This document shows positions 1,980 through 34,200 of a stretch of 64,000 nucleotides of DNA, piece by piece. A model generated the notes under the pieces. It worked only from the letters and a program-made list of their open reading frames with translations. It had not been told where the DNA came from and did no database searches. A program made the translations under genes and the position numbers. Numbering within the stretch: the stretch's first letter is position 1; every line of letters begins with the position of its first letter. Source of the stretch: Mustelus asterias (lineage: Eukaryota); contig NC_135823.1 of the NCBI RefSeq assembly GCF_964213995.1, positions 1,674,001-1,738,000 on the forward strand, written 5' to 3'.

Positions 1980-4900
1980 TTGTCAGGAATTCAGGAAGCT
2001 TGGGTGGAAGCTGAGAGCCAGGACAAAACAGGTTGTCATCTCTGGTATGTTGCCGGTGCCACGGGATAGCGAGTTGACGAACAGGGAGAGAGTGCACTTA
2101 AACACTTGGATGCAGGGATGGTGTAGGAGGGAGGGTTTCAGCTATGTGGATAATTGAAACACTTTCTGGGGAAGGTGGGACCTGTACCAACAGGACGTAG
2201 TGCACCTGAACCATAAGGGCACCAATATCCTGGGAGGGAAATTTGCTCCAGCTCTTCGGGGGGATTCAAACTAATTTGTCAGGGGGATGGAAAAATGAGT
2301 TGTAGTCCAGAGGTCAGTGAGTGTAGTGAGGTACTGGGAAGGGTATCATGGTCAAAGGTGGGTGCCAGCAGACAAGAAGGTGGGTTGAAGTGTGTCTACT
2401 TCAATGCAAGGAGCATCCGAAATAAGGTAGGTGAACTTGGGGCGTGGATTGGCACTTGGGACTACGATGTTGTGGCCATTACGGAGACATGGGTAGAACA
2501 AGAACAGGAATGGTTCTTGGACGTTCCGGGGTATAGATGTTTCAGTAAGTGTAGGGTAGCTGGTAAAAGAGGTGGAGGAGTGGCACTATTAATCAAGGAG
2601 AGTGTAACGGCTGCAGAAAGGCATTTCGAAGGGGATATGCCTACAGAGGTAACATGGGCTGAGGTTAGGAATAGGAAAGGAGCGGTCACGTTGATAGGAG
2701 TTTACTATAGGCCCCCAAATAGAAATAGAGATGTGGAGCAAGAAATTGCTAAGCAGATTATGGATAGGTGTGGAGGTCACAGGGTAGTTGTCATGGGCGA
2801 CTTTAACCTTCCAAACACTGATTGGAACCTTTATAGGTCGAATAGTTCGGATGGGGCAGTTTTTGTGCAGTGTGTGCAGGAGGGTTCCTGACACAATATG
2901 TGGATAAGCCGACAAGAGGTGGGGCCACATTGGATGTGGTAATGGGAAATGAACCGGGCCAAGTGTTGGATTTGGTTGTGGGAGAGCACTTTGGAGATAG
3001 TGACCACAATTCGGTGTCTTTTGTTATTACAATGGAGAGGGAGAGGGCCAGACGGCAGGGCATAGTTTACAATTGGGGGAGAGGTAATTATGATGCAATC
3101 AGGCGGGAATTTGGAAGCATAGGATGGGAACAAACATTGTCAGGCAACGGCACTAACGATAAGTGGAACTTTTTCAAGGAACAAATACTGCTTGTCCTTG
3201 ATAGGTATGACCCTGCCAGGCAGAGAGGAAATGGCCGAGTGAGGGAACCATGGTTCACAAAAGAGGTGGAATGTCTTGTCAAGAGGAAGAAGGAAGCGTA
3301 TGTTCGGTTGAGAAAACAAGGTTCAGTTGGCTCGATGGAGGGTTACAAGTTAGCAAGAAATTAGCTGAAAAAGGGGCTTAGGAGAGCTAGGAGGGGGCAT
3401 GAGAAGTCGTTGGCGGGTAGGATCAAGGAAAACCCCAATGCTTTTTACTCTTATGTGAGGAATAAAAGAATGACCAGGGTGAGGTTGGGGCCGGTCAAAG
3501 ACGGCAGTGGGAATTTGTGCATAGAGTCAGAAGAGATAGGAGAGGTGATGAATGAATACTTTTCTTCGGTGTTCACCAAGGAGAGGGGCCATGTTTTTGA
3601 GGAAGAGAGGGTGTCACAGGCTGATAGTCTGGAGGAAGTAGATGTTCGGAGGGAAGCTGTACTAGCAATTCTGAATGAACTGAAAGTTGGTAAGTCCTCT
3701 GGGCCTGATGTAATACATCCTCGGAGTCTTTGCGAGGCAAGGGATGAGATAGCAGAGCCTTTGGCATTGATCTTTGCGTCCTCACTGTCCACGGGGGTGG
3801 TGCCAGAGGACTGGAGAGTGGCGAATGTGTTTCCTCTGTTAAGACAGGGAACATAAATGACCCTGGTAATTATAGGCCGGTTAGTCTTACTTCGGTGGTC
3901 GGTAAGTTGATGGAAAAGGTCCTTATGGATAGGATTTACGACCATTTAGAGAGTTGCAGCTTAATCCGGGATAGTCAGCACGGATTTGTGAAGGGCAAGT
4001 CTTGCCTCACAAATTTGATAGAATTCTTTGAGGAGGTAACTAAGTGTGTCGATGAAGGTAGTGCAGTTGATGTCATATACATGGATTTTAGTAAGGCGTT
4101 TGATAAAGTCCCCCACGGTCGGCTTATGAAGAAAGTAAAGATGTGTGGGATTGAGGGACGTTTGGCCGATTGGATAGGTAACTGGCTATCTAACAGAAGA
4201 CAGAGGGTGGTGGTGGATGGAAAATGTTCGGACTGGAAACCGGTTACCAGCGGAGTGCCACAGGGATCAGTGTTTGGTCCTCTGCTATTTGTAATTTTTA
4301 TAAGTGACTTGGAGGAGGGGGCTAAAGGGTGAATCAGTAAATTTGCTGATGACACCAAGGTTGGTGGAGTAGTGGATGAGGTGGAGGGCTGTTGTAGGCT
4401 GCAAAGAGATATAGATAGGATGCAGAGCTGGGCTGAAAAATGGCAAATGGAGTTTAACCCTGGCAAATGCGAGGTGATTCATTTTGGTCGGACAAATTTA
4501 AATGTGGATTACAGGGTCAAAGGTAGGGTTCTGAAGAATGTGGAGGTACAGAGAGATCTTGGAGTTCATATCCATTGATCTCTGAAGGTTGCCTCTCAAG
4601 TGGATAGAGCCGTGAAGAAGGCCTATAGTGCGTTGGCGTTCATTAACAGGGGGTTTGAGTTTAAGAGCCGTGGGGTTATGCTGCAACTGTACAGGACCTT
4701 GGTGAGACCACATTTGGAATATTGTGTGCAGTTCTGGTCACCTCACTACAAGAAGGATGTGGAGACACTGGAAAGAGTGCAAAGGAGATTTACCAGGATG
4801 CTGCCTGGTTTGGAGGGTAGGTCTTATGAGGAAAGGTTGAGGGAACTTGGGCTTTTCTCTTTGGAGCGGAGGAGGTTAAGAGGAGACTTGATAGAGGTTT

Positions 4901-15081: not shown

Positions 15082-15750
15082 GAGAGACAGAGAGAGAGAG
15101 ACACACACACACAGAAAGGGAGGGATAGAGAGAGATAGAAAGAGAAAGAGACAGAACGNNNNNNNNNNNNNNNNNNNNNNNNNNNNNNNNNNNNNNNNNN
15201 NNNNNNNNNNNNNNNNNNNNNNNNNNNNNNNNNNNNNNNNNNNNNNNNNNNNNNNNNNNNNNNNNNNNNNNNNNNNNNNNNNNNNNNNNNNNNNNNNACG
15301 AGAGAGATGGGGAGACAGTGAAAGAGAGAGAGAGGGGTGAGAGGGAGAGAAAGAGAGAGAGAGAGAGGGAGACAGTGCGAGAGAGAGGGAGACAGAGCGA
15401 GATGGAGAGAGAGAGGGGGGAAGGGAGAGAGAGAGAGACAGAGACACAAAGACAGAGAGAGAGACAGACAGACAGAGAAAAAGAGAGAAATAGAGAGAGA
15501 GAAGGGAGAGTGAGACAGAAAGAGAGAGACAGAGAGAGAGAGAAGAGACTTAGACAGAGATACAAAGATAAATAGAGACAGACAGACATACAGAGGTAGA
15601 GAGATAGAGAAACACAAAGAGAGAAAAAGAGAGAGAGAGAGTGAGAGGGCCACAGAGAGATAGAGAGTGAGACAGACAGAGAGAGAGAGACAGAGAGACA
15701 GAGAGATAAAGCAGGAGAGAGGCGATAAAGAGAGAGAGAGAGAGAGTTTG
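15015..15750. repeat. (GA)n/(GACA)n low-complexity tract containing an assembly gap (N 15159-15297)
   Basis: Seen directly in the sequence. Confidence 0.98.
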
Positions 15751-25200: not shown

Positions 25201-28200
25201 GCACGTCTTGCGGAGGTTGCTGTGGCCGGGTTGCGTGGTGTCTGAGTTTGAAATTGAGTTTGTGTCTTTATATGCCCTGTTTGTGAACAGAATTCCCACT
25301 CACCTGAAGAAGGGGCTAAAGGCTCCGAAAGCTTGTGTGGCTTTTGCTACCAAATAAACCTGCTGGACTTTAACCCAGTGTTCTTAAACTTCTTACTGTG
25401 TTTACCCCAGTCCAACGCCGGCATCTCCACATCATTCCTCCCACAATCCAAAGATGAGCAGGTTTGTTGGATTGGCCATGCTAAATTGCTTCTTAGTTGT
25501 CCAGAATGCGCAGGTTACCTGGATTTGCCGTGCTAAATTGCCCCTTAGTGCCACAAGATGTGAAGGTTGGGGGACTAACGGTGTAAATACGTAGGGTTAC
25601 AGGGGTAGGGCCTGGGCAAAATGCTCTGTTGGAGAGCCGGTAAAGACTTGATGATCTAAATGTCCTCCTTCTGCACTGTAGGATTGGATGATCTGTGTAG
25701 ACTCACGGACAGTCAATTATTTATCGTGTGAAGGATGAGTTGGAATCCTTACCACCAACCTAAATTCAAGATTTGCTCTTAATACATTTAAAATAGCGGC
25801 ACCGGGGCAGGCATAGTCCATTCAGCTAATCGAGCCTACTTCCATACGATCATGGGGCGGCACGGTGGCACAGGGGTTAGCATTATTGCTTCATATCTGT
25901 TCAATTCCCGGCTAGGGTCATTGTCTGTGTGGAGTTTGCACATTCTCCCCATGTCTGCGTGGGTTTTCCCTGCGTGCTCTGATTTCCTCCCACAGTCCAA
26001 AGATGTGCAGGTTAGGTGAATTGGCCAAGCTAAATTGATTCTTAGTGTCGGAGGTCTAGCGAGAGTAAATGCATGACCTTATGGGGATAGGGCCTGGGTG
26101 GGATTGTTGTCGCTGCAGACTCGATTGTTCGAATGGCTTCCTTCTGCACTGTAGGATTCTATTGCTGATTAAAGATGTTATACAAAGTTACTGACATCAG
26201 GATGCTAAGTTTAAATTTATATTATGTGTGAGGATGTATTTGTAGATTGAACAAAAGGGAGTAAAGTGAGGTTAATTAATTCACCGCCCTTCAGGGCAAA
26301 ATGTCAATTTCAACTCTTGTCTACTGTCTGTTTCCAAGGACTCTGCGGTGTAGAACTGATCACACCTCCATTAGAACATAAGAACCAGGAACAGGAGTAG
26401 GCCATCTGGCCCCTCAAACCTGCTCCGCCATTCAATAAGATCATGGCTGATATTTCTGTTTACTTTCACCACTCTTTTTCGTTTTATATATTTGCAGAAA
26501 CTTTTGCTATCTGTTTTTATATTCTGAACTAGTTTGCTCTCACAATCCATCTTACCTTTCATTATAACGTTTTTTGTGGCTTTCTGCTGACCTTTAAAGA
26601 TTTCCCAATCCTCTATGTTCCCACTAATCTTTGCCACTTTGTATGCAATTGTTTTCAATTTCATACCCTCCTTTAATTCCTTAGATATCCATGGCGGATG
26701 ACCTCTTTTTCTACAGTCCTTCCTTATCACTGGTATATACTTTTGCTGAGCACTGTGAAAGATCGCTTTGAAGGTCCTCCACTGTTCCAGTTCAAATGAA
26801 TGCCTGGCTAAAGGACTGGTCCAGGAGGGAGGGCTTTATTTTCATAGACCAATGGGAGGTTTTCAGGAGAGGATGGCACCTGTACAAGAGGGAGGGGTCA
26901 CAACTAAGTTGGAAGGGCACAAATATCCTGGCTGGGAGCTTTGCTAATGCAGTTCGGGGGGGTTTAAACTAGTATGGCAGGGGGGTGGGGATCAAACTAT
27001 TAGGTCTATAAGTGTGGTGGCTGGGGACGAGCTTTGGGCTGGGACAAGGCTGGCAAAGAAGAAGAGCACTCTGGGGGAGGACGACCTCACTGAGCCTGGG
27101 TGTCTGGAGTGCTTATACTTCAATGCAAGGAGCGTAGCAGGTAAAACAGACGAACTCGGGGCCTTAATGCGCACGAGGAATTTGGATGTGGTTGCGGTGA
27201 CAGAGACTTGGTTGAAAGAGGGACAGGACTGGCAGCTGAATATTCCAGGGTACAAGTGTTTTAGGCGAGACAGAGGAGGGGCCAAAAGAGGTGGGGGAGT
27301 AGCGGTATTGGTTGGAGAGCATATTACAGCGGTGCAGAGGGAGGACAATTCGGAGGAGTCGTGTAGCGAGTCACTCTGGGTGGAGCTTAGAAACAGGAAA
27401 GGCGCAGTCACTATGTTGGGGGTGTACTACAGGCCCCCCAACAGCCCAAGGGAAGTGGAAGAATGGATATGTCAGGAGATACTGGATAGGTGCAGGAAAT
27501 ATAGGGTTGTTGTAGTGGGAGACTTCAATTTCCCTGGTATAGACTGGAAATCGCTGAGGGCAGGGACTCTGGATGGTGAGGCATTTGTAAAATGTGTACA
27601 GGAGGGTTCGTTGGAACAATATGTGGACAGCCCAACTAGAGAGGGGGCTATACTGGACCTGGTGCTGGGGAATGAGCCCGGTCAGGTCTTCAAAGTTTTG
27701 GTTGGGGAACATGTGGCAAATAGTGACCACAATTCTGTTAGCTTTAGGATAGTGATGGAAAAGGATGAGTGGTGTCCCAAGGGTAAGGTGTTGGATTGGG
27801 GGAAGGCTAACTTTATTGGGATCAGGCAGAAATTGGCAGCTCTTGATTGGGAGAGGCTGTTTGAGGGTAAATCCACATCTGGTATGTGGCAGTCTTTTAA
27901 GGAACGGTTGTTAGGGCTACAGGACAAGCATGTGCCTGTAAAAAAGAAGGATAGGAAGGGTAGGATTAGAGAACCGTGGATAACCAGGGAAATTGAGGGA
28001 CTGGTCAAAAGGAAAAGAGAGGCGTATGTTAGGTCCAAGCAGCTAAAAACGGAGGGAGCTCTGGAGGAGTATAATGAAAGTAGGAAAATACTCAAACGGG
28101 GAATTAGAAGAGCAAAAAGGGGTCACGAAATGTTCTTGGCAGACAGGATTAAGGAGAATCCCAAGGCATTTTATTCATACGTTAGGAACAAAAGGGTTGT

Positions 28201-31200
28201 TAGGGAAAAAATCGGACCTCTCAGGGACAAAAGTGGGGACTTATGCTTGGAGCCCAAAGAGGTAGGGGAGATCCTAAATGAATACTTTGCGTCGGTATTC
28301 ACTAAGGAGAGGGATGTGTTGACTGGGAGTGTCTCGGAGGGGAGTGTTGAACCGTTGGAGAAAATCTCCATTACAAAGGAGGAAGTGTTAGGTTTGTTAG
28401 AGAATATAAAGACTGACAAATCCCCAGGGCCTGATGGAATCTATCCAAGGCTGCTCAGGGAGACGAGAGGTGAAATCGTTGGGCCTCTGACGCAAATCTT
28501 TGTCTCGTCACTGGACACAGGTGAGGTCCCAGAGGATTGGAGGATAGCCAATGTGGTCCCGTTATTTAAGAAGGGTAGGAAGGATAACCCGGGTAATTAT
28601 AGGCCGGTGAGCTTGACGTCCGTGGTGGGGAAGTTGTTGGAGAAGATTCTTAAAGATAGGATGTATGCGCATTTAGAAAGGAATAAACTCATTAACGATA
28701 GTCAACATGGTTTTGTGAGAGGGAGGTCATGCCTCACGAACCTGGTGGTGTTTTTTGAAGAAGTGACCAAAATTGTTGACGAAGGAAGGGCCGTGGATGT
28801 TGTCTATATGGACTTTAGTAAAGCATTTGACAAAGTCCCTCATGGTAGGCTAGTGAAAAAGGTTGGATCCCATGGGATAAAGGGGGAGGTGGCTAGATGG
28901 GTGGAGAACTGGCTTGGTCATAGAAGACAGAGGGTGGTAGTGGAAGGGTCTTTTTCCGGCTGGAGGCCTGTGACTAGTGGTGTACCGCAGGGCTCTGTAT
29001 TGGGACCTCTGCTGTTTGTGATTTATATAAATGACCTGGAAGAAGGAGTAACTGGGGTGATCAGTAAGTTTGCGGACGACACAAAACTGGCAGGACTTGC
29101 AGATAGTGAGGAACATTGTCAGAGGCTACAGAAGGATATAGATAGGCTGGAAATTTGGGCAACGAAATGGCAGATGGAGTTCAATCCTGATAAATGCGAA
29201 GTGATGCATTTTGGTGGGAATAATGTAGGGAGGAGCTACACGATAAATGGAAGAACCATAAAGGGTGTAGAGACGCAGAGGGACCTGGGTGTGCAAGTCC
29301 ACAGATCTTTGAAGGTGACGTCACAGGTGGAGAAGGTGGTGAAGAAGGCATATGGCATGCTTGCCTTTATAGGACGGGGCATAGAGTATAAAAGTTGGGG
29401 TCTGATGTTGCAGATGTATAGAACGTTGGTTCGGCCGCATTTGGAATACTGCGTCCAGTTCTGGTCGCCACACTACCAGAAGGACGTGGAGGCTTTGGAG
29501 AGAGTACAAAGGAGGTTTACCAGGATGTTGTCTGGTATGGAGGGGCTTGGTTATGAGGAGAGATTGGGGAAACTGGGGTTGTTCTCCTTGGAAAGACGGA
29601 GGATGAGGGGAGACTTAATAGAGGTGTATAAAATTATGAAAGGCATAGATAGGGTGAACGGTGGGAAGCTTTTCCCCGGGTCGGTGGTGACGTTCACGAG
29701 GGGTCATAGGTTCAAGGTGAAGGGGGGGAGGTTTAACACAGATATCAGAAGGACATATTTTACACAGAGGGTCGTGGGGGCCTGGAATGTGTTGCCGGGC
29801 AAGGTGGTGGAGGCGGACACACTGGGAACGTTTAAGACTTATCTAGACAGCTATATGAACGGAGTGGGAATGGAGGGATACAAAAGAGTGGACTCGTTTG
29901 GACCAGGGAGCGGCGCGGGCTAATTGTTCCTGGTTTCTCGTTTCAAGGCTTCATTCTATGATCATCTTGCTGGTGCCAGTACAGAGTGAGACTGCGGATA
30001 GTTGGGAACCTGTCTCGGGGGCAGGGAATTCATATGGTGTTCGTGGAAGTGGAAATGACTAGGGTTGGGAAGCATTTTCCGATCGGGGCCATTGTGATCT
30101 CCTGGACTCGTTTCGATCGCCTCAGGGGGTCGGAGAGGAATTTCCCAGATTTTTTTTCCCCATATTGGCCCTGGGGTTTTTCACTCTGGGTTTTCGCCTC
30201 TCCCTGGAGATCACATGGTCTGGAATGGGGGGGTGCGGGTAAGTTAATAGGTTGTAATGAACAAAGCATCGTAGCTGTGAGGGACAGCTCGGTGGATAGG
30301 ATATTGGTATGTAGATAGGCTGGAAAATTGGGCGGGGATCCTGGATTCAGGATTCAATCCTGGACCGGGGAGCGGCGCGGGCTTGGAGGGCCGAAGGGCC
30401 TGTTCCTGTCCTGTATTGTTCTTTGTTCTTGTTCTTTGTTCCTCAATTGTCTCACCATAACGTTTTTGCTCCCATTCTACCTTAGCCAACTTCTCCCTCA
30501 TCCCTTTATAGTCTCCTTTGTTTAACAACAAGACACTGGAATTGGATTTTACCTTCTCACGCTCCATCTGTATTTTAAATTCAACTATACTGTGATCGCT
30601 TCTTCCAAGAGGATCCCCTAACTGCAAGATCATTAATTATTCGCGCCTCATTACACTGGACCAGATATAGGATAGTTTGCTCCCTTACTGTTCAAGGAAC
30701 CTGTCGCCGATACATTCTGTGAACTCCTCCTCAAGGCTGCCTTGACCGCCCTGGTTTGACCAATTGATTTGGAGATTATAATCCCCCATGATAATTGCTG
30801 TACCATTTTTACATGCATCAGTTATTTCTTTGTTTATTTCTCGCCCCACCATGATGTCATTATCTGGTGGCCTATAGACTACGCCTATCAGTGACATTTT
30901 CTCCTTACTATTTCTAATTTGCACCCAAATGGATTCAACCTTTTTTTTCCATAGAACCTATATCATCTCTCACTGCCGCCCTGATACCATCCTTAAATAT
31001 CAGAGCTACATCACCTCCCTTACCTTCCTGTCGGTCCCGCCAAACAATTTGATACCCCTGGATATTCAACTCCCAGTCGTGACCATCCTGCAACCATGTC
31101 TCTGTAATGGCCACCAAATCATACGTTCGCAATGATTTGTGCTGTCAACTCATTTATCTTGCTTCGAATGCTACGAGCATTCAGATAAAGTGCCCTTATG

Positions 31201-34200
31201 CCAGATTTTGTAGCTTCTTTTTGAATTCTAACACTTCCATTAATAAAATCTCCTGAGTTCTCCTTCCTTTTAACTATTTTTACTGAATTTTGATGTAGTT
31301 GGAACCGTCTCCCCACATTTTGTTCTTGCTCCCTTCTTCTCGGACTCCTTACATAGGTTCCCATCCCCCTGGCATATTAGTTTAAACCCTCCCCAACTGC
31401 TGTAGCAAAGACTCCCCCTCGGACATCAGTACCAGTCCTGCCCAGGTGTAACCCGTCCAATTTGTACAGGTCCCACCTCCCGATAACCGGTCCCAATGCT
31501 TCAGGAATCTGAAACCATTCCCCGACACCATCTCTTCAGCCACGTATTTATCCGATATACCCTCTCATTTCTACTCTGACCAGCACGGGACACCAGTAGT
31601 AATCCTGAGATCACTACCTTTGAGGTCCGATTTCTTACATTCCTTCCTAGCTCCCTGTATTCTGCTTTTAGGACCTCATCTCTTTTTTTTAATCCATGCT
31701 GCTTGTACCAACGTCTACTACGACCACTGGTTGTTCGCCCTCCCCCTTCAGAAGGTCCAGCAGCCGCTACGAGACATCCTTGGCCCGAGAATCAGGGAGG
31801 CAACATACCTTCCTGGAGTCTCGTTTGCGGCCACAGAAACGCCTGTCTATTTCCCTTACATTTAAATCCCCTATAACTATTGCACTGGCACACTTTTTAT
31901 CCCTCCCCTCTGCAGCAAAACCAACCATGGTGCAACACGTTTGGCTGCTGCTGCTTTCCCGAGAGAGGTCATTCCTCGATTTACTTCCTGGAAAGGGAGA
32001 TGGGAGCAACTAATAACCTTCAGGAGGGAAATCACGTCTGGACATGAAGGAGAAAACTTGAAAGGCCGAGGGGGGAAATGGTGGGCCGAATAGGATAGCT
32101 CCGTCGAAGAGACAGTCTCGGCATAATGGGCTGAACGAGATCTTTCTGGGTGCATATATCAAATATTTGTACATGTTTTCAGAAACACAAAGCGAAACGG
32201 AGAATAATGTACTAAACACGAAGCTATTCTGGGGCAGGTGCAATTCCAATGCAGACTGACATATTTTAACAATTGAATGCACACAAACGCTCAAATAAAT
32301 ATCTATACACACACACACACACACTCGAACAGACAGATATCGATACACACACACTCAGATACGTATGTTTGCACAAACATAGACACACGCGCATTCAGAT
32401 ATTTATCGATACAAGGTCACGGTACACATTGGTACACGATAGAGGTCGTGGTACAAATTGGTACCGCTGACATAGGTAGGAAGAGGGAAGGGGTCATGAA
32501 AAGAAAATATAGGGAGTTAGGTAGACAGTTGAGAAGGAGGAACGCAAAGGTAGTAATCTCAGCATTGCTGCCTGTGCCACGGGAAAGTGAGAGCAGGAAT
32601 GGAGTGAGATGGAGGATGAATGCGCGGCTGAGGGACTGGAGCAGGGGGCAGGGATTCCGGTTCCTGGATCATTGGGACCTCTTTAGAGGCAGATGTGACC
32701 TGTACAAAAAAGGCGGGTGACACTTGAATCCCAGGGGGACCAATATCCTGGCAGGAAGGTAGGCTAAGCCTACTGGCTAAGGCTATCTTTAAACTAGAAA
32801 GGTTGGGGGGAGGGAATCGTGGTGAGGTGACTGAGAGCGAGGAGGTGAGCCCGCAAATAGAGAAGGATTGTACACACTATAAGAGGGAGAATAGACGTGT
32901 GATGCAGAAGGGGCGAGCTCAGACCAAATGTTTGAGATGTGTCTATTTTAACGCCAGGAGTGTAGTGTATAAAGTGGATGAGCTTAGAGTGTGGATCGAT
33001 GCTTGGAAGTGTGATGTGGTGGCCATTACGGAGTGGGGACAGGGACAGGACTGTATACTTCAGATGCCGGGTTTCAGATGTTTGAGAAAGGACAGAAAGG
33101 GAGGCAAAAGAGTGGGGGTGGGGGGGGGGGAGTGGCACTGCTGATCAGGGATAGTGTCACAGCTATAGAGAAGGTGGAAGCCGTGGAGGGATTGTCTACG
33201 GAGTCTCTGTGGGTGGATGTGTGGAGCGGGGAGCGATCGATAACTTTGTTGGGTGTTTTCATGCACAGGCCACCCAATAGTAACAGGGATATTGTGGAGC
33301 AGATAGGGAAACAGATCCGGGAAAGATGAAGTAATAACAGGGTTGTCGTGATGGGAGACTTTGATTTCCCAAACATCGATTGGAATACCCCTCGGGTAAG
33401 AGGTTTGGATGGGGAGGAGTTTGTTAGGTGTGTTCAAGAGGGTTTCCTGACATAGCATGTGGATAAGCCTACAGGAGGAGAGGCTGTACTCGATCTGGTA
33501 CTGGCTAATGAGCCTGGACAGGTGTCGGATCTCTTACTGGGGGAGCATCTTGGGGATAGTGATCATAACTCTATCTCCTTGACGCTCGCATTGGAAAGAG
33601 ATAGGATCAGGCAAGCTAGGAAAGTGTTTATCTGGAGTAAGGGGAAATATGAAGCCATTAGGCAGGAGATTAGAGGCGTAAATTGGAAGGAGATATTCTC
33701 GATGAAAAGTAGCGAAGTAAGGTGGCAGATTTTCAAGGAATGTTTGTCCAGAATTCTGCATGACAACGTTCCGATGAGACAGGGAGGTTTTGGTACGTTA
33801 CGGGAACCGTGGGGCACGAAAGCTGCGCTGAACCTAGTCAAAAAGAAAAGGAAAGTGTACAAAAAGGTTCGGAGAGCTAGGCGGTGTTAGGGATCTAGGT
33901 GAGTATACGGCTTGTAGGAAGGGACTCAAGAAAGAAATTAGAAGAGCCAGAAGGACCACGAGAAGGCCTTGGCAGGTAAGATTAAAGAGAACCCTAAGGC
34001 GTTCTATAAATATGTGAAGAGTAAAAGGATGAGATATGAAGGAATAGAACCTATAAAATGTGAAGGTAAGAAAGTCTGTACAGAACCGGAAGAAATAGCA
34101 GAGGTGCTAAATGAATATTTTACCTCGGTATTCACGGTAGAAAAATACCTGGGTGGTTATAGTACAGGTTTGAGGTGGACTGAAAAGATTGAGCATGTGG

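What the first reader, a model, noticed from the sequence alone, without database searches (positions are those of the whole stretch)
26945..27013. Coronavirus-type slippery heptamer U_UUA_AAC at the CR1 ORF1/ORF2 junction: candidate programmed -1 frameshift
Seen: ORF1 ends GGU UUA AAC UAG (heptamer 26963-26969). ORF2 is in the -1 frame, open only from 26948, and its first AUG lies after the first APE motif (YFNARS). The same heptamer-plus-stop in the same phase occurs in other subfamilies at 32788-32794 (+) and 31380-31386 (-), and with one change (UUCAAAC) at 2265-2271. Each is followed about 8-12 nt later by a GGGGG.GG(G) tract. Known: U_UUA_AAC is the canonical X_XXY_YYZ -1 shift site, and the LINEs studied so far mostly reach ORF2 by reinitiation. 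Inference: these CR1s make an ORF1-ORF2 fusion by frameshifting. Caveats: two decayed copies do have an upstream in-frame AUG, and the G tract may just encode Gly.
Basis: partly seen in the sequence, partly recalled or inferred. Interest (0 to 1): 0.72.

Follow-up and report, generated by a model that had tools for sequence, protein, structure and literature searches.

The report
Conserved frameshift signal in CR1 retrotransposons
A common jumping gene of sharks, reptiles and birds keeps a virus-like 'slippery' seven-letter signal exactly where its first gene ends, which suggests that its copying enzyme is made by the ribosome slipping back one letter; this has not yet been shown by experiment.

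Summary
The window is shark/ray-type DNA, and all 4 CR1 LINE ORF1/ORF2 junctions carry U_U(U/C)A_AAC-UAR, then a G run 10 nt after the heptamer (4 hits, 0.07 expected). In 17 DNA junctions from three lineages ~40% identical in ORF2, the codons are UUA 16/17 and AAC 17/17, with a preceding U in 16/17. They are the only codon-invariant columns of 12 conserved in ORF1's end. 38/45 close and 46/109 distant ORF1 proteins end Leu-Asn; 14 end Gly-Asn or Lys-Asn, as G_GGA_AAC or A_AAA_AAC would (DNA unseen). The -1 frame opens just upstream without AUG and stays open to the endonuclease; this copy's first AUG falls inside the fold. Best reading: programmed -1 frameshift giving an ORF1-ORF2 fusion (~0.75). 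Against: no conserved stimulatory structure, Met in 11/12 linkers, AUG beside the stop in some subfamilies, no experiment. Ten literature searches found no CR1 frameshift claim; the original CR1 papers were unavailable. The scan noted a similar LINE junction in another genome (e1-7350016).

The parts
26790..26972 (+). 3' remnant (about 60 codons plus TAG) of ORF1, an SGNH esterase; the copy is 5'-truncated
   Evidence: homologs carry PF13472; their profile matches ZfL2-1 esterase 4C1B at E 2e-36
26945..26947 (+). TAA that closes the -1 (ORF2) frame 5 codons before the heptamer; no AUG between it and the heptamer
   Evidence: the common variant A26947G in related contigs keeps a stop
26963..26969 (+). 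slippery heptamer U_UUA_AAC, last two ORF1 codons (Leu-Asn); candidate -1 shift site
26970..26972 (+). ORF1 stop UAG directly after the heptamer (UAG or UAA in 16/17 junctions, never UGA)
26980..26990 (+). G tract (G6-T-G4), conserved as primary sequence; candidate stimulator
26969..27115 (+). 49-codon Met-free linker in the -1 frame between shift site and endonuclease
27116..27133 (+). first APE motif YFNARS at the end of core strand beta-1; its Asn is invariant in 34/34 aligned ORF2s
27167..27169 (+). first in-frame ATG of ORF2, inside the first helix of the modelled endonuclease
26948..29923 (+). intact ORF2 frame, 991 codons: APE (aa 57-264) and reverse transcriptase (aa 545-773)
30384..30441 (+). 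3' end of the element with short TTGTTCT-type repeats (read by eye)
2265..2286 (+). junction of a second subfamily: U_UCA_AAC-UAA, G5 at 2282-2286; in-frame ATG at 2295
32788..32810 (+). junction of a third subfamily (decayed): U_UUA_AAC-UAG, G6 at 32805-32810; in-frame ATG at 32902
31365..31386 (-). junction of a fourth subfamily (decayed): U_UUA_AAC-UAA, G5 at 31369-31365

Best explanation
This is the ORF1/ORF2 junction of a CR1 LINE, and CR1 most likely reaches ORF2 by programmed -1 ribosomal frameshifting. Most ribosomes finish ORF1 (Cys-motif, coiled coil, esterase; about 310 aa in relatives) at UAR. A minority slip back one base on U_UUA_AAC (tRNA-Leu and tRNA-Asn re-pair on UUU and AAA), read CUA next, cross a variable linker and make an ORF1-APE-RT fusion of about 1,300 aa, like Gag-Pol. 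The adjacent stop and the G tract 10 nt downstream are the likely stimulators, acting as primary sequence (for example a site for a G-run-binding protein) and not as a pseudoknot. SHOWN: the site, its phase, its codon-level conservation, the open -1 linker, the lack of a usable AUG in the intact copy, the lack of a shared RNA structure. INFERRED: that slippage occurs, its rate, the role of the stop and G tract, and the need for the fusion.
For: (1) 17 DNA junctions (4 window, 13 metagenome loci found with an upstream ORF1 motif, not with the heptamer): UUA 16/17, AAC 17/17, preceding U 16/17 across 6 different residues, UAR 16/17. Background in 7 ORF2s: TTA/Leu 0.03-0.20, AAC/Asn 0.19-0.75. 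(2) Only these two of 12 conserved ORF1-end columns are codon-invariant; 14 conserved APE columns have modal fractions 0.36-0.83. (3) The three lineages share 39-45% ORF2 identity and are separate clades in a quick tree. (4) 38/45 close and 46/109 distant ORF1 proteins end Leu-Asn-stop, including turtle, snake, Komodo dragon and swallow. The residue before cannot have a U-ending codon in only 2/85 against 17-18% background. (5) 11 end Gly-Asn (Gln before it in 9/11 against 1/85) and 3 end Lys-Asn, the residues that G_GGA_AAC and A_AAA_AAC encode. The dipeptide stays at the stop while its distance from the esterase motif varies from 23 to 64 aa. The solved esterase matches the profile only to 303 of 309. 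(6) The -1 frame is closed 1-37 codons upstream with no AUG in 17/17, and has 1 stop in 577 linker codons against 39 and 54 in the other frames. (7) Starting at this copy's first AUG would remove strand beta-1 and the invariant Asn. (8) G|GGG|G in 15/16 against 0-13%. (9) Variants fit tolerated ones: G_UUA_AAC in L001; GUU is named as tolerated in PMC3542737.
Against: No conserved hairpin or four-run quadruplex downstream (z mostly between -1 and +1; RNAalifold 0 pairs in 11 sequences) and no shared long-range partner, while canonical -1 sites need a structure 5-9 nt downstream. Met lies in 11/12 linkers against 6.7-7.5 expected (P 0.007-0.025, relatives not independent). An in-frame AUG lies 2 nt after the stop in 4/17 junctions, and UAAUG overlaps the stop in 2/16 published consensus junctions. 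DNA for the Gly-Asn and Lys-Asn enders could not be obtained, so their codons are inferred. 10 of the 17 junctions are bird-type and share ancestry. 45/109 distant representatives end otherwise. The G tract is weak or missing in about 3 of the 16 consensus junctions (by eye). ORF1p is reported non-essential for the related ZfL2-1 in cultured cells (PMC3905857), so a fusion need not be obligatory.
Confidence: 0.75

Rival explanations
1. Termination-reinitiation, as in SART1 and L1: ribosomes stop at UAR and restart ORF2 at a nearby AUG or near-cognate codon; the conserved block is a stop-restart signal and ORF2p is a separate protein.
For: AUG 2 nt after the stop in L002, L003, L004, L013, and GUG at the same place in L005, L007. 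UAAUG in 2/16 consensus junctions. Met excess in linkers. It is the mechanism reported for SART1 and proposed for L1 (PMC5972666; PMC3708506); L1 is described as AUG-independent (PMC5009743).
Against: 0/4 window junctions have an AUG within 3 codons of the stop, and the intact copy has none before the endonuclease. The same codon is TGG, TGT, TGC, TCG, TCC or CCG elsewhere. It does not explain why the 7 nt before the stop obey X_XXY_YYZ, nor the switch between Leu-, Gly- and Lys-Asn ends. The TURBS-like word TGGGA lies upstream in only 5/17.
Confidence: 0.15
2. The block is another kind of nucleic-acid signal (internal promoter for an ORF2 transcript, splice signal, or RNP-packaging site) that happens to sit at the ORF1 stop.
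For: TTTAAA is TATA-like and GGGGG-N-GGG resembles an Sp1/KLF box or hnRNP H/F site (recalled, from no call). The block is conserved as primary sequence without structure, and diverged contigs share it up to 26989 and then diverge.
Against: The AG needed for a 3' splice site is present in 13/17 and a GT after the stop in 4/17. A transcript starting downstream would still need an AUG before APE, which the intact copy lacks. The fixed -1 phase, with the frame open from the heptamer onward, and the Gly-Asn and Lys-Asn ends are not predicted.
Confidence: 0.06
3. Protein constraint or shared ancestry: Leu-Asn ends the esterase, Gly starts the linker, and the DNA likeness follows.
For: 10/17 junctions are bird-type relatives; the strand is G-rich (GC skew +0.26 to +0.39).
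Against: Synonymous sites in neighbouring conserved codons vary freely; the ZfL2-1 esterase folds without this dipeptide; the dipeptide follows the stop and not the fold.
Confidence: 0.04

Closest known systems
Canonical -1 programmed frameshifting at X_XXY_YYZ in RNA viruses and retroviruses (Gag-Pol, replicase; PMC3542737, section read)
   Same: Heptamer of the consensus form in the right phase; polymerase ORF in the -1 frame; a structural or accessory ORF upstream; a tolerated GUU variant occurs (L001).
   Different: No stem-loop or pseudoknot 5-9 nt downstream was found; the host is a non-LTR retrotransposon; the stop abuts the heptamer in 16/17.
Dictyostelium TRE5-A / TRE3-A, APE-type non-LTR elements said to need a -1 frameshift for ORF2 (figure legend of review PMC5911963, passage)
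   Same: A two-ORF APE/RT LINE with ORF2 in the -1 frame.
   Different: A different clade and ORF1; the passage names no slippery site and I did not see the primary evidence. Here a defined heptamer is conserved from cartilaginous fish to birds.
Protein-stimulated -2/-1 frameshift of PRRSV nsp2 (PMC7939443, passages)
   Same: A short conserved primary-sequence motif about 11 nt after the slippery site, with no predicted RNA structure.
   Different: That motif is C-rich and bound by nsp1beta with PCBP; here it is G-rich and no binding protein is known.
SART1 UAAUG coupling and mammalian L1 reinitiation (PMC5972666, PMC3708506, PMC3894237; passages and parts 1-2 of 3)
   Same: Bicistronic LINE RNA with ORF2 needed at low level; UAAUG or a nearby AUG occurs in a minority of CR1 subfamilies.
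   Different: Those give a separate ORF2p; in CR1 the AUG is not conserved but the slippery site is.
CR1 clade LINEs with esterase ORF1 (survey PMC13343379, passages and part of the supplement; ZfL2-1 esterase PMC3905857, passages)
   Same: The element is an ordinary member: esterase ORF1, APE-RT ORF2.
   Different: These papers treat ORF1 and ORF2 as separate; 'frameshift', 'slippery' and 'readthrough' occur 0 times in the survey's main text.

Membership tests
CR1 clade LINE | ORF2 with APE endonuclease followed by RT | tested here: met
   Pfam PF03372/PF14529 and PF00078; model matches L1 and TRAS1 endonucleases, TM about 0.75
CR1 clade LINE | ORF1 with SGNH esterase | tested here: met
   remnant aligns to full-length PF13472 proteins of sharks and rays; profile hits 4C1B at E 2e-36
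CR1 clade LINE | RT phylogeny groups with reference CR1s | tested here: inconclusive
   quick tree only, no curated reference set; groups with bird CR1-type ORF2s away from the L2-type L009; catshark, stingray and sawfish CR1 consensus sequences show the same junction
Canonical -1 programmed frameshift | X_XXY_YYZ heptamer in the 0-frame phase | tested here: met
   U_UUA_AAC in 15/17 junctions, G_UUA_AAC and U_UCA_AAC once each
Canonical -1 programmed frameshift | downstream ORF in the -1 frame, open from the shift site | tested here: met
   1 stop in 577 codons of 12 linkers against 39 and 54 in the other frames; 5 of 17 junctions left out (2 truncated, 3 decayed)
Canonical -1 programmed frameshift | synonymous-site conservation of the shift site | tested here: met
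Canonical -1 programmed frameshift | stimulatory stem-loop or pseudoknot 5-9 nt downstream | tested here: not met
   pseudoknots were not modelled directly, but no conserved C-rich partner for the G tract was found near or far
Canonical -1 programmed frameshift | measured transframe product | not testable with these tools
   needs a reporter assay, ribosome profiling or mass spectrometry
Protein-stimulated frameshift (PRRSV type) | conserved unstructured motif about 10-11 nt after the shift site | tested here: met
   G run starts at base 10-12 after the heptamer in 13/16 and at base 8 in 3/16
Protein-stimulated frameshift (PRRSV type) | trans-acting protein that binds the motif | not testable with these tools
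   no data
Termination-reinitiation (SART1 type) | conserved AUG overlapping or close to the ORF1 stop | tested here: not met
   0/4 in the window, 4/17 overall, 2/16 consensus junctions

The most novel reading that the evidence does not exclude
Esterase-ORF1 LINEs as a group make a Gag-Pol-like ORF1-ORF2 fusion by recoding. CR1s, from cartilaginous fish to birds and in more distant animal lineages, use a -1 shift on X_XXA_AAC-stop driven by an unstructured G tract (a protein-dependent stimulator of a new kind), while the fish L2-type relatives use stop-codon readthrough at UGA-C (L006, L008: UGA CUA G; L009: UGA C plus a 13-bp stem). Annotated CR1 ORF2 proteins would then be systematically mis-started.
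Probability: 0.35. Interest if true: 0.9.

Novelty: new variant of a known kind. Interest (0 to 1): 0.76.

Why it matters
How ORF2 of two-ORF LINEs is translated is called an open question in the reviews read (PMC3894237; PMC3708506). CR1 is described as the dominant retrotransposon group of most vertebrates (PMC13343379, abstract). A conserved -1 shift would give a precise and cheaply testable answer: ORF2p would be an ORF1 fusion carried into the RNP through the ORF1 coiled coil, at a ratio set by the shift. It would also mean that gene models starting at the first AUG cut into the endonuclease, it would add a very old cellular-genome example to the short list of vertebrate -1 frameshifts, and it points to a structure-free G-rich stimulator.

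Tried and rejected
No whole genome is held for the window. DNA for more junctions: viral contigs gave nothing relevant (one search returned one unrelated GC-rich SGNH locus, L039); genome contigs gave none; phages and plasmids gave no match; metagenome loci are not searchable by handle. Hence no DNA for Gly-Asn or Lys-Asn enders. Of the 38 metagenome loci, 13 hold a CR1-type junction, 3 an L2-type junction, and 22 end before the ORF1 stop or were not resolved to it. RNA structure: local folding of 60 and 100 nt, folding across the site and duplex scans along the elements, RNAalifold and Rfam (0 hits) showed nothing shared; C-rich best partners 650-770 nt upstream in several bird-type ORF1s were not shown to be homologous and are not counted. 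Four-run G-quadruplex: 0/17. Splice signals rejected. The bacterial promoter scan does not apply to this host. Read laying: raw-read run X22 laid 0 reads; of 79 variant rows 40 were shown and none lies in 26948-26996, so this is suggestive only. A supplement search for synonymous variants of the site showed only 4 places per term and none at an ORF1 end by eye; not used as evidence. In-frame esterase-APE proteins were few (P0332 and P0336 among 15 long hits; P0029 among 45; read); two are NCBI gene models and they are not counted as support. The careful tree did not finish; the quick tree is shown.
Full report
WHAT THE WINDOW IS. The window is repeat-rich DNA whose ORF1 remnants match proteins of sharks, rays and a chimaera; no whole genome is held. 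The finding lies in a 5'-truncated CR1 LINE copy, about 26790-30441, with 60 codons of ORF1 and an intact ORF2 frame of 991 codons carrying APE and RT domains. It is inserted in an older minus-strand CR1.

OBSERVATION. Every coordinate given is right. tblastn finds 4 ORF1/ORF2 junctions in the window and all 4 carry the heptamer, an adjacent UAR and a G run. The composite pattern gives 4 hits against 0.07 expected. The four copies are distinct subfamilies: 61-66% identical over the last 150 nt of ORF1, 60-83% over the 30-nt block, 44-51% over the next 100 nt. In Logan contigs of runs X1, X10 and X6 (2691, 1985 and 24 laid; X22 gave 0), summed depth peaks at 26960-26995 and loose ends pile up behind 26989 (33, 44 and 4 contigs), so diverged relatives share the block and then diverge (depth is no copy number).

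CONSERVATION IN PROTEINS. Of 45 ORF1 homologs, 38 end exactly Leu-Asn. A profile search of 50%-identity representatives listed the best 150 of 6330; of the 109 new ones whose match reaches profile position 290, 46 end Leu-Asn, 11 Gly-Asn, 3 Lys-Asn, 2 Ser-Asn, 1 Glu-Asn, 1 Phe-Asn and 45 otherwise, the last group including fish L2-type, truncated and frameshifted entries. The slippage rule predicts that the codon before UUA ends in U, which excludes K, E, Q, M and W: they stand there in 2 of 85 Leu-Asn enders against 17-18% nearby (binomial P about 3e-5, overstated because rows are related). Gln, which can supply the G of G_GGA_AAC, precedes 9/11 Gly-Asn and 1/85 Leu-Asn ends. The dipeptide follows the stop, 23-64 residues after the esterase His motif, and the solved ZfL2-1 esterase matches the profile only to position 303 of 309. 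Leu, Gly and Lys are unlike as residues but are what XXA encodes. Their codons were not seen (searches found no DNA).

CONSERVATION IN DNA. One metagenome scan with an ORF1 motif about 140 residues upstream of the junction gave 38 loci, of which 13 reach a CR1-type junction. With the window's 4, n = 17: UUA 16, AAC 17, preceding U 16 (Gly, Asp, Ser, Ala, Cys, Phe), UAR 16, UGA 0. In a codon alignment of 12 of the 17 (those without an indel in the last 58 codons), 12 columns are conserved as residues; only the last two are codon-invariant (TTA 11/11, AAC 12/12) and the other 10 have modal fractions 0.40-0.67; 14 APE columns give 0.36-0.83. The set spans three lineages: window-type, bird-type (10 loci; the two full-length ones 44-45% to the window ORF2) and L001/L012/L016 (40-41% to the window, 39-40% to bird-type; separate clades in a quick tree). 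In the supplement of PMC13343379, where only the first 400 nt of each consensus are held, the 9-mer has 23 hits; of 22 shown, 16 lie by eye at an ORF1 end (halosaur, bowfin, bullfrog, coelacanth, alligator, crocodile, chimaera, stingray, sawfish, catshark, dogfish) and 6 elsewhere. That search selects for the motif and shows breadth only.

HOW ORF2 CAN BE REACHED. The -1 frame is closed 1-37 codons before the heptamer (5 or fewer in 10/17) with no AUG in 17/17. From the heptamer to the first APE motif it has 1 stop in 577 codons (12 linkers of 21-91 codons; 5 junctions left out as truncated or decayed) against 39 and 54 in the other frames. 22 of 120 listed ORF2 models, nearly all from a stork, keep the junction peptide and a long open linker. 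In the intact window copy the first AUG is residue 28 of the modelled endonuclease, inside helix 21-31 and after strand 6-13 (mean pLDDT 93); the Asn ending that strand is invariant in 34/34 and aligns with the start of the L1 endonuclease. A protein started there would lack a core strand (inference).

THE G TRACT. The first Gly codon after the stop is GGG in 16/16 and lies in G|GGG|G in 15/16, with six different residues before and four after, against 0-13% of Gly codons in six ORF2 bodies. It is therefore kept as nucleotides. It forms no shared hairpin, four-run quadruplex or long-range duplex. Its distance from the heptamer recalls the unstructured C-rich motif 11 nt after the PRRSV nsp2 shift site (PMC7939443). 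A G-binding protein is my guess and is untested.

RESULTS AGAINST. The structure that canonical -1 sites need (PMC3542737) is missing. Met occurs in 11/12 linkers against 6.7-7.5 expected. Four bird-type loci have an in-frame AUG 2 nt after the stop and two shark consensus sequences read UAAUG as in SART1. Some subfamilies could therefore reinitiate, instead of or besides shifting. The G tract is weak or absent in about 3 of the 16 consensus junctions. ORF1p is not essential for ZfL2-1 in cultured cells. Nothing here measures translation.

A PARALLEL. Three loci of the fish L2 type (ORF1 like ZfL2-1; L009 ORF2 23% to the window) have ORF2 in frame 0 behind a single UGA: UGA CUA G in L006 and L008, with 70 and 69 open Met-free codons to the endonuclease motif, and UGA C in L009, with a 13-bp stem from base 8 (z -4.8, 0/200 shuffles; L006 -2.0; L008 -0.1) and Met at codons 50 and 105. 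UGA-CUA with an extended stem is the type II readthrough signal. Two routes to one fusion would fit a need for the fusion; n is 3.

MECHANISM. Most likely (0.75): a minority of ribosomes slip -1 on the heptamer, helped by the adjacent stop and the G tract, and make an ORF1-linker-APE-RT fusion of about 1,300 aa. Conservation of the first heptamer base favours two-tRNA slippage; a one-tRNA slip on A_AAC with the stop in the A site is a variant that I cannot exclude. Rivals: reinitiation 0.15, another nucleic-acid signal 0.06, protein constraint 0.04.

WHAT IS KNOWN. Ten full-text searches (terms combining CR1, LINE, non-LTR, ORF1/ORF2, esterase, frameshift, slippery, ZfL2-1, TRE5-A, G-quadruplex) returned no paper that proposes a shift site for CR1. 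Seen as passages: PMC5009743 (first 300,000 characters; CR1 0 times), PMC4255032, PMC3708506, PMC3905857, PMC5911963, PMC5006619, PMC2734521, PMC7939443, PMC11835228 (first 300,000 characters; its frameshift mentions concern a retrovirus), PMC5972666, PMC13343379 and its preprint 10.64898/2026.01.13.699120. Seen as sections: PMC3894237 parts 1-2 of 3, PMC3542737 section 13 part 1. The nearest precedent is a review legend saying that Dictyostelium TRE5-A and TRE3-A need a -1 frameshift. Not seen: Haas 1997 (title only, in a reference list), Kajikawa 1997 (recalled), Kapitonov and Jurka 2003 (not held) and Repbase; these may already remark on the overlap, so the novelty claim is limited to the library searched.

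VERDICT. A real and strongly conserved signal in an ordinary CR1 element. It works like a -1 programmed frameshift, but I do not file it under the canonical structure-stimulated class because that feature was tested and not met. New variant of a known kind; interest 0.76, since it makes an open question directly testable with one reporter assay.

Noticed in passing
L006:1082-1090, L008:1316-1324, L009:1818-1920: Fish L2-type elements with esterase ORF1 have ORF2 in frame 0 behind one UGA in a readthrough context (UGA CUA G twice; UGA C plus a 13-bp stem, z -4.8); no Met before the endonuclease motif in L006 and L008.
   Followed up: partly
window 26464-26781 and 30466-31900 (minus strand) around 26790-30441: The finding's element is nested in the older minus-strand CR1 whose junction is at 31386; that element's ORF2 match stops at 30466 and resumes at 26781.
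   Followed up: partly
window 29899-29921 and 30361-30383: A 23-nt direct repeat spans the ORF2 end and the start of the 3' tail, enclosing about 440 nt that hold a second short RT-like repeat (30309-30333 matches 29136-29160).
   Followed up: no
proteins P0124, P0134, P0099, P0177: Several distant ORF1s end Phe-Phe-X, which could reflect a U-run slippery site; DNA not seen.
   Followed up: no
proteins P0015 and P0212: Shark-type CR1 ORF1 and ORF2 proteins are deposited under bacterial names (Pseudomonas aeruginosa, Carnobacterium maltaromaticum) on 3-4 kb contigs, most likely contamination.
   Followed up: no
proteins P0332, P0029, P0336: Database proteins in which the esterase runs in frame into the endonuclease; single copies or gene models.
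   Followed up: partly
window 15159-15297: A run of 139 N, the only gap in the window.
   Followed up: no
L038:4400-4480: A bird-type copy that has lost the last part of ORF1 but rejoins right at the heptamer.
   Followed up: no
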